Shown here one piece after another: positions 49,820 through 52,873 of a DNA stretch of 64,000 nucleotides. The notes below the pieces were generated by a model that was given only the letters and a program-made list of their open reading frames with translations, was not told where the DNA came from and did no database searches. Origin of the DNA: Escherichia coli (lineage in GTDB: Bacteria; Pseudomonadota; Gammaproteobacteria; Enterobacterales; Enterobacteriaceae); NCBI RefSeq assembly GCF_003018255.1, contig NZ_CP027440.1; one strand, 5' to 3'. The position numbers were made by a program, and so were the translations under genes. Each line of letters starts with the position of its first letter. The first letter of the stretch is position 1.

Positions 49820-49949
49820 GATGTATCCTGAAAAATTAAAGTACGCGGCGATTGTAGGGATTGCTCATCAGATGTCCAGATCTTGATGAATTCCTATTTG
49901 TGAGCTACGTCTGGACAGTAACTTGTTACAACCTGTAGCATCCACTTGC

Positions 49950-50160
49950 CGGTCCTGTGAGTTAATAGGGAATCCAGTGCGAATCTGGAGCTGACGCGCA
50001 GCGGTAAGGAAAGGTGCGATGATTGCGTTATGCGGACACTGCCATCCGGTGGGAAGTCATCATCTCTTAGTATCTTAGATACCCCTCCAAGCCCGAAGAC
50101 CTGCCGGCTAACGTCGCATCTGGTTCTCATCATCGCGTAATATTGATGAAACCTGCGGCA
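49950..50160 (+). ncRNA. Cobalamin (AdoCbl) riboswitch in the btuB 5' leader
   Basis: Long untranslated leader containing a B12-box-like element (ccaagcccgaagacctgccgg, ~50088-50107); boundaries approximate. Confidence 0.7.
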
Positions 50161-50187: not shown

Positions 50188-52071
50188 ATGATTAAAAAAG
50201 CTTCGCTGCTGACGGCGTGTTCTGTCACAGCCTTTTCCGCTTGGGCACAGGATACCAGCCCGGATACTCTCGTTGTTACTGCTAACCGTTTTCAGCAGCC
50301 AGTAAATACTGTCCTTGCACCTACTGATATTGTTACCCGTGAGGATATTCAACGCTGGCAGTCGAAAGACCTCAACGATGTTATGAGTCATCTCCCCGGT
50401 GTAAATATCTCTCAAACTGGTGGAATGGGGACGAGTTCTTCTCTTTATGTTCGAGGCACTGAATCGCGCCATGTTTTAGTGTTGATTGACGGTGTGCCGA
50501 TGGCCCGTGCCGGTATCGACAATGCAATTGATATTAGCCAGTTCCCGGTATCACTTGTACAGCGTGTTGAATATATTCGTGGGCCGCGTTCTGCCGTTTA
50601 TGGTTCTGGTGCCATCGGAGGTGTGGTGAACATTATTACAATGAGTAATGATGAGAAAGCTCAGATCAACGCAGGAATGGGTACAAATGGTTATCAAGCC
50701 TATGATGGGGTAATAAATAAACGTTTTGGCGATACGATGGTAACAGCAGCAGGTGCTTACCAGACGACCAAAGGTTTTAACATTCAGCCTGGCTCACCAT
50801 ACAGTGGTGATAGCGATCGCGATGGATATCGCAACAAACTTTTCTGGGGGGGGCTGCAGCATAAGTTTAACGATAACTTCTCGGGGTTCTTCCGTGGTTA
50901 CAGCTACACAGCTAATAATGATTACGACCAGGGCTCGATGTATGGTTCTGCTACTGGCAACGAAGAAGCTCAGAATTACAACCAGTCCTGGGATACTGGC
51001 CTACGCTATAACTCCGGCATCTATTCGTCTCAGTTAATTGCTAACTATCAACGACTCAAGAATTATAACTACACAAATAATCTTGGTCGTTATGCGGGAG
51101 ATGCCACCCTGGATGACATGGAACAGCGTTATATTCAGTGGGGTAATAGCATTGAGGTAGGGCATGGTGCAATTAGCGGCGGGATCGATTGGAAACAGGA
51201 AAAACTGACGTCCAGCAGCATTACAAAATCAGATGATTACGAACGCGATACCACCGGGTTATACCTGACTGGACAGCAACAGATTTCCAATGTGACTTTG
51301 GAAGCTTCTGGCCGAGAAGATCATGATGAACAGTTTGGCTGGCATGGTACCTGGCAGACAGCTGCTGGCTGGGAGTTTATTGATGGCTACCAGGCAACAC
51401 TTTCTTACGGTACCAGTTTTCTTTCGCCTTCTCTTGGACAGCAATACGGGGCTGCTCGCTTTGCTTCAATTTATGGTCCTGGTATTGCAGCCAACCCAAA
51501 TTTGAAGCCAGAAGAATCTAAACAGTGGGAGATTGGAATTGAGGGGGTAACTGGGACTCTGGATTGGCGGCTCTCAGGATATCGTTATGAAATTCAGAAC
51601 CTGATTGATTATAAAAGCATAAATAATGTCAACCAGTACATTAATGTGAAATCAGCCACGATTAAAGGGCTGGAATGGACGGGAAATATTACAACCGGTC
51701 CTGTTGAACATCGCTTGACGTTACAATATGTTGACCCGCGCGATGATGAAACAGATAAAGTGCTGTACCGTCGGGCAAAACAGCAGGTTAAGTACGAGTT
51801 GACTGGACAAGCTTATGGTTTCGAATGGGACGTATCTTACCAATATATAGGTCAACGATACGACAACGCTTATGACGAGACCTCTGGCTCATCACATACA
51901 GTTAAATTAGGCGGTGTGAGCTTGTGGGATCTTGCGGTTGCGTATCCGGTCACCTCTCATCTAACAGTTCGTGGTAAAATAGCCAACCTGTTCGACAAAG
52001 ATTATGAGACAGTCTATGGCTACCAAACTGCAGGACGGGAATACACCTTGTCTGGCAGCTACACCTTCTGA
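50188..52071 (+). CDS. btuB: TonB-dependent outer-membrane cobalamin receptor, divergent/mosaic allele
   Basis: Track ORF 50143..52071 trimmed to MIKKASLLTACSVTAFSAWAQDTSPDTLVVTANRF... (627 aa); TonB box DTLVVTA, C-terminal ...GSYTF; central region differs strongly from recalled K-12 BtuB. Confidence 0.9.
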   Translation: MIKKASLLTACSVTAFSAWAQDTSPDTLVVTANRFQQPVNTVLAPTDIVTREDIQRWQSKDLNDVMSHLPGVNISQTGGMGTSSSLYVRGTESRHVLVLIDGVPMARAGIDNAIDISQFPVSLVQRVEYIRGPRSAVYGSGAIGGVVNIITMSNDEKAQINAGMGTNGYQAYDGVINKRFGDTMVTAAGAYQTTKGFNIQPGSPYSGDSDRDGYRNKLFWGGLQHKFNDNFSGFFRGYSYTANNDYDQGSMYGSATGNEEAQNYNQSWDTGLRYNSGIYSSQLIANYQRLKNYNYTNNLGRYAGDATLDDMEQRYIQWGNSIEVGHGAISGGIDWKQEKLTSSSITKSDDYERDTTGLYLTGQQQISNVTLEASGREDHDEQFGWHGTWQTAAGWEFIDGYQATLSYGTSFLSPSLGQQYGAARFASIYGPGIAANPNLKPEESKQWEIGIEGVTGTLDWRLSGYRYEIQNLIDYKSINNVNQYINVKSATIKGLEWTGNITTGPVEHRLTLQYVDPRDDETDKVLYRRAKQQVKYELTGQAYGFEWDVSYQYIGQRYDNAYDETSGSSHTVKLGGVSLWDLAVAYPVTSHLTVRGKIANLFDKDYETVYGYQTAGREYTLSGSYTF

Positions 52072-52873
52072 ACCACGTCCCACCGTGCTGGTGTTTGACT
52101 CCGGCGTCGGTGGGTTGTCGGTCTATGACGAGATCCGGCATCTCTTACCGGATCTCCATTACATTTATGCTTTCGATAACGTCGCTTTCCCGTATGGCGA
52201 AAAAAGCGAAGAGTTTATTGTTGAGCGAGTGGTGGCAATTGTCACCGCAGTGCAAGAACGTTATCCCCTTGCGCTGGCTGTGGTCGCTTGCAACACCGCC
52301 AGTACCGTTTCACTTCCTGCATTACGCGAAAAGTTCGACTTCCCGGTTGTTGGTGTCGTGCCGGCGATTAAACCTGCTGCACGTCTGACGGCAAATGGCA
52401 TTGTCGGATTACTGGCAACCCGCGGAACTGTTAAACGTTCTTATACTCATGAGCTGATCGCGCGTTTCGCTAATGAATGCCAGATAGAAATGCTGGGCTC
52501 GGCAGAGATGGTCGAGTTGGCTGAAGCGAAGCTGCATGGCGAAGATGTTTCTCTGGATGCGCTAAAACGTATCTTGCGTCCGTGGTTAAGAATGAAAGAG
52601 CCGCCAGATACCGTTGTACTGGGGTGTACCCATTTCCCTCTACTACAAGAAGAACTGTTACAGGTGCTGCCAGAGGGAACCCGGCTGGTGGATTCTGGCG
52701 CAGCGATTGCTCGCCGAACGGCCTGGCTGTTAGAACATGAAGCCCCGGATGCAAAATCTGCCGATGCGAATATTGCCTTTTGTATGGCAATGACGCCAGA
52801 AGCTGAACAATTATTGCCCGTTTTACAGCGTTACGGCTTCGAAACGCTCGAAAAACTGGCAGTTCTAGGCTGA
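52016..52873 (+). CDS. murI: Glutamate racemase
   Basis: Track ORF 52004..52873 trimmed to MATKLQDGNTPCLAATPSEPRPTVLVFDSGVGGLSVY... (285 aa); 5' end overlaps btuB 3' end by 56 nt. Confidence 0.9.
   Translation: MATKLQDGNTPCLAATPSEPRPTVLVFDSGVGGLSVYDEIRHLLPDLHYIYAFDNVAFPYGEKSEEFIVERVVAIVTAVQERYPLALAVVACNTASTVSLPALREKFDFPVVGVVPAIKPAARLTANGIVGLLATRGTVKRSYTHELIARFANECQIEMLGSAEMVELAEAKLHGEDVSLDALKRILRPWLRMKEPPDTVVLGCTHFPLLQEELLQVLPEGTRLVDSGAAIARRTAWLLEHEAPDAKSADANIAFCMAMTPEAEQLLPVLQRYGFETLEKLAVLG

What the first reader, a model, noticed from the sequence alone, without database searches (positions are those of the whole stretch)
52016..52071. btuB/murI 56-nt out-of-frame overlap coincides with the conserved btuB 3' block
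The murI start lies inside the 3' end of btuB. The btuB segment that stays K-12-like at its 3' end includes this overlap, consistent with dual-coding constraint (or translational coupling) setting the right-hand limit of the divergent btuB tract.
Basis: inference. Interest (0 to 1): 0.2.

Follow-up and report, generated by a model that had tools for sequence, protein, structure and literature searches.

The report
Known btuB–murI overlap inside conserved island
The 56-base overlap between the vitamin B12 receptor gene btuB and the essential cell-wall gene murI is real, long known and conserved across enteric bacteria, but it is only the right half of a 108-base ultra-conserved island, and the variable part of btuB stops at or before the island's left edge, not at the overlap.

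Summary
btuB is 50188-52071 and murI is 52016-52873, so they share 56 nt out of frame. The window's btuB is about 45% different from K-12 between 50293 and 51909 and K-12-like afterwards.

- The divergent tract ends 53-107 nt upstream of the murI ATG.
- All other btuB allele contrasts, in Escherichia and three further genus groups, end at 51903-51963. None ends in the overlap.
- In 75 non-Escherichia Enterobacterales, btuB third-codon-position entropy falls from about 1.4 bits to 0.43 bits over 51964-52071.
- The overlap (0.45 bits) is the 3' half of this island. Dual coding explains that half, because murI wobble sites return to about 1.2 bits just past the btuB stop.
- The 5' half (51964-52015, 0.43 bits) codes only for BtuB, so it needs another cause. 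This is probably murI expression signals, which is inferred and untested.
- The left border of the tract (50293) is equally sharp with no overlapping gene.

The island, overlap included, is the likely homology anchor that bounds an old, multi-allelic btuB cassette. The overlap itself is textbook knowledge, so interest is low.

The parts
49933..50122 (+). Cobalamin riboswitch in the btuB leader (context only)
   Evidence: Rfam RF00174, 87.8 bits, E=1.3e-21. Annotated as a riboswitch in the RefSeq relatives.
50188..52071 (+). btuB CDS, 627 aa, a divergent 'type A' allele of the TonB-dependent vitamin B12 receptor
   Evidence: ORF. Pfam Plug and TonB_dep_Rec_b-barrel domains. 100% identical to btuB of E. 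coli SCU-171. 282 of 5,425 complete E. coli genomes are at least 99% identical.
50293..51909 (+). Divergent tract of btuB relative to K-12 (mismatch rate about 0.45, with indels)
   Evidence: Pairwise alignment and change-point analysis.
51910..51963 (+). R1: E. coli-type btuB segment, 2 differences from K-12, in a region that varies freely between genera. It is the zone where all allele-class junctions fall.
   Evidence: Third-position entropy is 1.3 bits.
51964..52015 (+). R2: 5' half of the ultra-conserved island. It codes for BtuB only (TVRGKIANLFDKDYETV) but its synonymous sites are constrained. Candidate murI expression signals.
   Evidence: Third-position entropy is 0.43 bits against 1.42+-0.08 elsewhere. 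Mann-Whitney p=5e-6 against other conserved-residue codons. Alignment A2 of 64 distinct sequences.
51972..51980 (+). TGGTAAAAT, an extended -10-like motif (TGnTAnAAT). Candidate internal murI promoter (inference).
   Evidence: The motif is TGGTARAAT in all 64 distinct sequences: eight of its nine positions are invariant and the sixth is A or G. The consensus promoter scan found no -35/-10 pair here. No transcription start data could be retrieved.
51982..52020 (+). Candidate RNA hairpin (51982-51985 with 52017-52020; 51988-51994 with 52005-52012) that would mask the GAG Shine-Dalgarno-like triplet and the murI AUG
   Evidence: 99.4% of cells paired in 64 sequences. 7 of 11 pairs vary on one side only, always to another standard pair (mostly G.U), with no compensatory double change. 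-9.5 kcal/mol, z=-1.9. Weak evidence.
52004..52006 (+). Upstream in-frame ATG (would give a 289-aa MurI). Not conserved, so unlikely to be the start.
   Evidence: Destroyed by the common E. coli SNP 52005 T>C. Roughly one genome in eight differs by one base in the block. The codon is ACG in most other genera.
52016..52071 (+). R3: the 56-nt btuB/murI out-of-frame overlap, the 3' half of the island
   Evidence: Entropy pattern. BtuB last 18 aa have 10 of 18 positions invariant; MurI first 18 aa have 2 of 18 invariant.
52016..52873 (+). murI CDS, 285 aa, glutamate racemase
   Evidence: ORF. Pfam Asp_Glu_race domain at residues 34-234. Differs at 2 of 285 residues from PDB 2JFN chain A, which starts MATKLQ.

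Best explanation
The feature is the long-known same-strand, out-of-frame overlap in which the first 18 codons of the essential glutamate racemase gene murI are written over the last 18 codons plus the stop of btuB. These murI codons encode an N-terminal extension that Gram-positive racemases lack.

The overlap is conserved to the base across the order Enterobacterales. It forms the 3' half of a 108-nt island (51964-52071) of extreme nucleotide conservation:
- The 3' half is held by dual coding. btuB wobble positions are murI second positions, and murI wobble positions are btuB first positions. BtuB's C-terminal strand is the more constrained partner.
- The 5' half is held by something other than coding. 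This is most probably murI expression signals embedded in btuB: an extended -10-like TGGTARAAT, a short leader, the GAG Shine-Dalgarno-like triplet and the AUG context.

btuB itself exists in Escherichia as at least five deeply diverged allele lineages, about 25-48% different in nucleotide sequence. Each has relatives in other genera.

Within a species the flanks are homogenised by homologous recombination. The divergent core cannot recombine, so every allele's divergent tract ends in the 60 nt just left of the island (51903-51963). The island, overlap included, serves as the perfectly matching right-hand homology anchor.

The overlap therefore contributes to the limit of the mosaic tract but does not by itself set it. 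Steps shown: anatomy, conservation, junction positions. Steps inferred: the anchor role, murI signals in R2, and selection by phages and colicins as the driver of btuB diversity.
For: Anatomy and conservation:
- Overlap coordinates.
- The ATG sits 56 nt before the btuB stop end in all 79 usable loci. Intact MurI in the 85 sequences that reach its stop.
- The island is the global minimum of btuB third-position entropy: 0.43 bits against 1.42+-0.08, with the next lowest window at 1.10. R2 is 0.43 and R3 is 0.45. murI wobble sites are 1.19 bits right after the btuB stop.
- BtuB tail has 10 of 18 invariant residues; MurI head has 2 of 18.
- The MurI N-terminal extension is absent from Gram-positive homologues.

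Junctions and recombination:
- Junctions lie at 51903-51963 in all 15 Escherichia contrasts and in all 19 contrasts from three other genus groups.
- The 108-nt block is at least 97.2% identical in all 5,425 E. coli genomes.
- The longest exact run shared with other genera usually lies in the overlap.
- Each E. coli allele class has cross-genus relatives at 73-82% nucleotide identity, about the same as murI between genera.

Independence from btuB:
- The overlap and its effect on the Keio collection are discussed in preprint 10.1101/2025.12.01.691526.
- murI is intact downstream of a natural btuB::IS421 insertion.
Against: - Inside the island donors and recipients are almost identical. The true crossover points cannot be located there, and a change-point method will always place the apparent limit at or before the island's left edge.
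- No transcription start, ribosome profiling or reporter data were available, so the function of 51964-52015 is inferred.
- The promoter scan found no canonical sigma-70 site.
- RNA folding z-scores are unremarkable, and the hairpin has no compensatory changes.
- The left border at 50293 is shared by three classes without a conserved island. Conserved anchors are therefore not the whole story of where tracts end.
- The species sequences are not phylogenetically independent, so the Mann-Whitney p-values are only indicative.
Confidence: 0.7

Rival explanations
1. One reading: dual-coding constraint in the 56-nt overlap alone sets the right-hand limit of the divergent btuB tract.
For: The overlap is nearly invariant. 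In 41 of 76 non-Escherichia species it holds the longest exact run shared with the window. The conservation ends exactly at the btuB stop. No E. coli tract enters it.
Against: The limit lies 53-107 nt upstream of the ATG in the window and 53-113 nt upstream in every other contrast. The abutting 52 nt are not dual-coding yet are equally conserved. The window is E. coli-like across 51910-51963, where there is no cross-genus constraint. The left border is equally sharp without any overlap.
Confidence: 0.12
2. Translational coupling: murI is translated by ribosomes finishing btuB, and the need to keep this coupling intact fixes the 3' end of btuB.
For: The start lies inside the upstream gene. A possible hairpin masks the AUG and could be opened by ribosomes translating btuB.
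Against: murI is essential, whereas btuB is repressed by B12 and is dispensable. A natural btuB::IS421 strain has an intact murI. A deletion of the first ~1000 bp of btuB including its ATG is viable, and transposon insertions throughout btuB are recovered. The 56-nt spacing is far from the 1-4-nt overlaps typical of coupling (established knowledge).
Confidence: 0.08
3. The K-12-like 3' block reflects only protein-level conservation of the BtuB C-terminus (the NLFDKDYE motif and the terminal aromatic strand needed for barrel assembly). murI plays no role.
For: BtuB residues encoded by 51964-52068 are almost invariant: 11 of 18 and 10 of 18 positions. The motif is a hallmark of TonB-dependent receptors (established knowledge; Pfam barrel match reaches residue 601).
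Against: Protein constraint does not explain the loss of synonymous variation. Codons for conserved residues elsewhere in btuB keep 1.18 bits at third positions, against 0.47 and 0.36 bits in the conserved-residue codons of the two halves of the island.
Confidence: 0.1

Closest known systems
btuB-murI overlap of E. coli K-12 (b3966/b3967), as annotated in RefSeq and discussed in the Keio and TraDIS literature
   Same: Identical 56 nt, with the same start, stop and frame relationship. The same consequence applies: btuB cannot be cleanly deleted without hitting the essential murI.
   Different: Nothing in the overlap differs. Only the upstream 1.6 kb of btuB belongs to a different allele lineage.
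Long same-strand out-of-frame gene overlaps created by N-terminal extension (overprinting) in bacteria
   Same: The downstream gene's start lies inside the upstream gene. The overprinted part encodes a lineage-specific N-terminal tail. Conservation is asymmetric, with the older frame more constrained.
   Different: It is much longer than the usual 1- or 4-nt overlaps. It is also unusually old and fixed, present order-wide in 79 of 79 usable species loci.
Mosaic surface-protein genes with conserved ends and variable cores exchanged by homologous recombination (for example the flagellin gene fliC and outer-membrane receptor and porin genes)
   Same: Several deeply diverged cores sit between species-typical flanks. 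Junctions cluster where similarity resumes. The gene tree and the flank tree disagree.
   Different: Here the whole barrel and plug are replaced, not only the exposed loops. The right flank is an embedded start region of an essential gene.

Membership tests
Genuine overlapping gene pair (both frames encode real proteins) | The upstream ORF is a real, full-length protein through the overlap | tested here: met
   BtuB has Plug and barrel domains. Its C-terminal YGYQTAGREYTLSGSYTF has 10 of 18 positions invariant across 76 species.
Genuine overlapping gene pair (both frames encode real proteins) | The downstream start codon inside the upstream gene is conserved and is the one used | tested here: met
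   ATG at -56 in all 79 usable loci. The alternative ATG at 52004 is not conserved. The solved E. coli MurI chain 2JFN_A starts MATKLQ.
Genuine overlapping gene pair (both frames encode real proteins) | Mutual constraint: wobble sites of each frame are suppressed only within the overlap | tested here: met
   btuB third positions are 0.45 bits in the overlap against about 1.4 elsewhere. murI third positions are 0.17-0.42 bits in the overlap against 1.19 just after it.
Translationally coupled gene pair | Downstream translation depends on upstream translation | not testable with these tools
   Indirect evidence is against it: a natural btuB::IS421 strain with intact murI, and a viable btuB 5' deletion with transposon insertions across btuB.
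Recombination junction bounded by a homology anchor (minimal efficient processing segment) | An uninterrupted identity run of at least about 25-30 nt adjoins the junction | tested here: met
   The 108-nt block has 0-1 difference among the E. coli classes. The exact runs of 57-78 nt shared with other genera start at 52015, about 50 nt to the right of the junction zone.
Recombination junction bounded by a homology anchor (minimal efficient processing segment) | Phylogenetic discordance between the core and the flank | tested here: met
   The btuB core is 52-75% identical while murI is 94-100% identical within Escherichia. The same pattern appears in Kluyvera, Raoultella/Enterobacter and Buttiauxella.
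Recombination junction bounded by a homology anchor (minimal efficient processing segment) | The crossover physically lies in the anchor | tested here: inconclusive
   There are no informative sites inside the island. The window's junction is visible at 51909/51910, upstream of the island.
Sigma-70 extended -10 promoter (candidate murI promoter inside btuB) | TGnTAnAAT motif | tested here: met
   TGGTARAAT at 51972-51980 in all 64 distinct sequences: eight of nine positions are invariant and the sixth is A or G. No -35 element was found and nothing was reported by the two-hexamer scan.
Sigma-70 extended -10 promoter (candidate murI promoter inside btuB) | A mapped transcription start 5-9 nt downstream | not testable with these tools
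   Start-site supplements that were searched held no entry, or the papers were not held.

The most novel reading that the evidence does not exclude
The 52 nt of btuB coding sequence just upstream of the murI ATG (51964-52015) are an order-wide conserved, embedded murI expression element. It could be an extended -10 promoter and/or a leader hairpin that masks the AUG in the long btuB transcript but not in a short murI transcript. This would make the essential murI independent of the B12-repressed btuB. Together with the overlap, it would form the fixed right-hand anchor of an ancient btuB cassette polymorphism shared between genera.
Probability: 0.4. Interest if true: 0.4.

Novelty: already known. 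Interest (0 to 1): 0.22.

Why it matters
The overlap is textbook knowledge and explains why btuB cannot be cleanly deleted. This analysis adds three modest points:
- The overlap is fixed to the base across Enterobacterales.
- It is half of a larger island whose other half is conserved for non-coding reasons. That points to unmapped murI expression signals inside btuB, which matters for anyone recoding, deleting or engineering btuB, a receptor for phages and colicins.
- btuB is a deeply multi-allelic cassette whose right-hand limit always abuts this island. This is relevant to predicting phage and colicin host range and to recombination-aware typing.

Tried and rejected
- Donor search. No sampled genus carries a btuB core closer than 79% to the window's allele. 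Only another Escherichia lineage does (98%). 'Recent import from an identified donor' was therefore dropped in favour of old allele lineages.
- Promoter scan with two hexamers: nothing on the + strand near the island.
- Rfam: no known RNA family in the island, only the upstream cobalamin riboswitch.
- Thermodynamic folding of 51950-52085 and 51985-52071: z=-0.99 and +0.33, not significant. The local hairpin has z=-1.9 and only one-sided changes. It is kept as a weak lead only.
- A longer MurI starting upstream (GTG at 51971 or ATG at 52004) as the cause of conservation in 51964-52015. This was rejected. In E. coli, and in the other sequences with ATA at that btuB codon (most of the 64), the murI frame has a TAG stop at 51980-51982, and the ATG at 52004 is not conserved.
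- Literature look-ups for a murI transcription start, and for the original 1993 murI paper, failed or returned nothing.
- My first count of 372 'type A' genomes was corrected to 282 type A plus 90 type B.

Full report
**1. What is there**

The window around the finding is the E. coli trmA / cobalamin riboswitch / btuB / murI / rrn region.
- btuB runs from 50188 to 52071 (627 aa, stop TGA at 52069-52071).
- murI runs from 52016 to 52873 (285 aa).
- The two genes therefore share 52016-52071, which is 56 nt, with murI one base out of frame.
- The same overlap is annotated in K-12 MG1655 and in every RefSeq E. coli record fetched.
- Both products are bona fide proteins. BtuB has the Plug and TonB-dependent barrel domains. 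MurI has the Asp/Glu racemase domain and differs at 2 of 285 residues from the solved E. coli chain 2JFN_A, which starts MATKLQ.
- The overlap is well known. A 2025 TraDIS preprint (10.1101/2025.12.01.691526) discusses it, notes that it is why btuB is missing from the Keio collection, and reports orientation-biased transposon insertions within it.

**2. The mosaic**

Against K-12 the window is 98-100% identical in trmA, the riboswitch, the first 105 nt of btuB and all of murI. It is only about 55% identical, with indels, from 50293 to 51909. A change-point analysis puts the right junction at 51909/51910, with mismatch rates of 0.45 on the left and 0.01 on the right. Only two further differences (51960, 51963) occur before 52212. 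The K-12-like 3' block is thus 162 nt long and the overlap is its last 56 nt. The junction is 107 nt (dense differences) or 53 nt (last sparse difference) upstream of the murI ATG.

**3. Other alleles and strains**

Among 5,425 complete E. coli genomes:
- 282 carry the window's allele (type A);
- about 90 carry a second divergent class (type B: L004, L005, L089);
- about 92 carry a third (type C: L002, L003);
- the rest are K-12-like.

A fifth class occurs in another Escherichia species (L016). Yet another Escherichia lineage carries both the type A and the K-12 classes (L007, L084).

All contrasts between classes have their right junction at 51903-51963. The left junction is at 50292-50300, or at 50222-50231 for L016.

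Outside Escherichia the same discordance is seen: the btuB core is at least 20 points less identical than murI. It occurs in Kluyvera, in Raoultella/Enterobacter and in Buttiauxella, with right junctions at 51924-51963.

No junction lies within 52 nt of the ATG. No E. coli genome has less than 97.2% identity over 51964-52071.

**4. The island**

I collected btuB-murI loci from 79 usable species genomes of Enterobacterales, from Escherichia to Yersinia, Serratia and Brenneria.
- The ATG is exactly 56 nt before the end of the btuB stop in all of them. MurI is intact wherever the locus reaches its stop.
- Using only the 75 non-Escherichia sequences, third-codon-position entropy of btuB averages 1.42+-0.08 bits in every 36-codon window ending before 51900. 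It is 0.43 bits for 51964-52071, the global minimum; the next lowest window is at 1.10 bits.
- The right edge of this island is the btuB stop. murI wobble sites rise to 1.19 bits in the next 15 nt. This is the expected signature of dual coding.
- In the overlap, btuB third positions are murI second positions and murI third positions are btuB first positions.
- BtuB is the more constrained partner: 10 of 18 residues are invariant, against 2 of 18 for MurI.
- The overprinted MurI residues are an N-terminal extension absent from Gram-positive racemases.

**5. The half that dual coding does not explain**

The left half of the island, 51964-52015, encodes only BtuB (TVRGKIANLFDKDYETV). Its third positions carry 0.43 bits, indistinguishable from the overlap's 0.45 (p=0.59). 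This is far below other codons for conserved residues (1.18 bits, p=5e-6).

Protein constraint cannot do this. A longer MurI cannot either. In E. coli, and in the other sequences with ATA at that btuB codon, the murI frame has a TAG stop at 51980-51982. The upstream ATG at 52004 is removed by a common E. coli SNP (52005 T>C) and is ACG in most genera.

Two sequence features stand out in the alignment of 64 distinct sequences:
- A TGGTARAAT motif at 51972-51980, conserved in all 64 sequences, which resembles an extended -10 promoter element.
- A hairpin (51982-51994 with 52005-52020) that would mask the GAG triplet and the AUG. It is 99.4% paired. Seven of its 11 pairs change on one side only and remain a standard pair, mostly G.U. 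There are no compensatory double changes, and its stability is modest (-9.5 kcal/mol, z=-1.9).

The consensus promoter scan, Rfam and longer folds gave nothing, and I could retrieve no transcription start data. I therefore infer, but cannot show, that this half holds murI expression signals.

Such signals are needed. murI is essential, while btuB is B12-repressed and dispensable. A natural btuB::IS421 strain keeps murI intact. A deletion of the first ~1000 bp of btuB is viable. This also argues against obligatory translational coupling.

**6. How the pieces fit**

Each E. coli btuB class has relatives in other genera at 73-82% nucleotide identity. That is about what murI shows between the same genera (78-80%). 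The only close relative of the window's core is in another Escherichia lineage (98%). The classes are therefore old lineages, not a recent import from an identifiable donor.

Within species the flanks are species-typical. This implies homogenising recombination that cannot enter the roughly 45%-diverged core.

The segment 51910-51963 varies freely between genera (1.3 bits) yet is K-12-like in the window. The window's junction is therefore a real recombination junction about 100 nt left of the overlap.

The island supplies the perfect-match anchor. In 41 of 76 species the longest exact run shared with the window starts in or immediately before the overlap, and in 15 it is the 57-78-nt run from 52015. 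Exchange then resolves within the adjoining, moderately conserved 60 nt.

A caveat applies. Inside the island there are almost no informative sites. Crossovers there would be invisible, and any method will place the apparent limit at or before 51964.

**7. Verdict**

- Dual coding is real and explains the 3' half of the conserved island. The overlap is probably part of the homology anchor.
- The tract does not end at the overlap. The part of the island that abuts the junctions is not dual-coding.
- The left border (50293) is equally sharp without any overlap or island.

The overlap itself is already known. The extras are of modest interest and rest partly on inference. They are its order-wide fixation, the unexplained synonymous constraint upstream of the murI ATG, and the multi-allelic btuB cassette.

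Noticed in passing
window 50293-51909; loci L001-L007, L016, L084, L089: btuB in Escherichia exists as at least five deeply diverged allele classes. In 5,425 E. coli genomes about 91% are K-12-like, 282 are type A, about 90 are type B and about 92 are type C. A fifth class occurs in Escherichia sp. MOD1-EC7003. Each class has relatives in other genera at about the same divergence as murI, which points to old lineages shared between genera rather than recent imports.
   Followed up: partly
window 50188-50300: The left border of the divergent tract falls at 50292/50293, just after the TonB-box codons (DTLVVTANRF), in classes A and C and in one of the two class B representatives; in the other (L004) it is at 50300. 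This region has no cross-genus synonymous conservation, so why the borders nearly coincide is unexplained.
   Followed up: partly
window 51964-52015: The 52 nt of btuB coding sequence upstream of the murI ATG have strongly suppressed synonymous variation from E. coli to Yersinia and Serratia. They include the run GTTCGTGGTARAAT, which is nearly invariant in 64 distinct sequences (two rare substitutions and the A/G position aside). Possible embedded murI promoter or leader.
   Followed up: partly
window 52005: A common E. coli SNP, T>C, is synonymous in btuB (TAT>TAC) and removes the upstream in-frame ATG at 52004. This supports 52016 as the murI start. Roughly one genome in eight in a spread sample differs by one base in the 108-nt block.
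   Followed up: partly
L087 (NC_004431.1, CFT073), equivalent to window 52051, 52077, 52112: The RefSeq CFT073 record has ambiguous bases (N) inside the btuB/murI overlap and early murI. It also has a real C>T at 52044, which is synonymous in BtuB and gives T10I in MurI.
   Followed up: no
L090 (NZ_CP141581.1, strain ECO-104): btuB is split by an IS4-like IS421 insertion about 550 nt into the gene, and murI downstream is intact. This is a natural btuB-null strain.
   Followed up: partly
L071 (CACSKA010000012.1): A contig labelled Chryseobacterium sp. 18061 carries a typical Enterobacteriaceae btuB-murI locus with the 56-nt overlap. This is probably contamination or mislabelling of the assembly.
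   Followed up: no
loci L008-L086, downstream of murI: In most draft genomes the contig ends within about 1 kb after murI. This is consistent with an rRNA operon following murI, as in E. coli, which suggests the btuB-murI-rrn arrangement is widely conserved.
   Followed up: no
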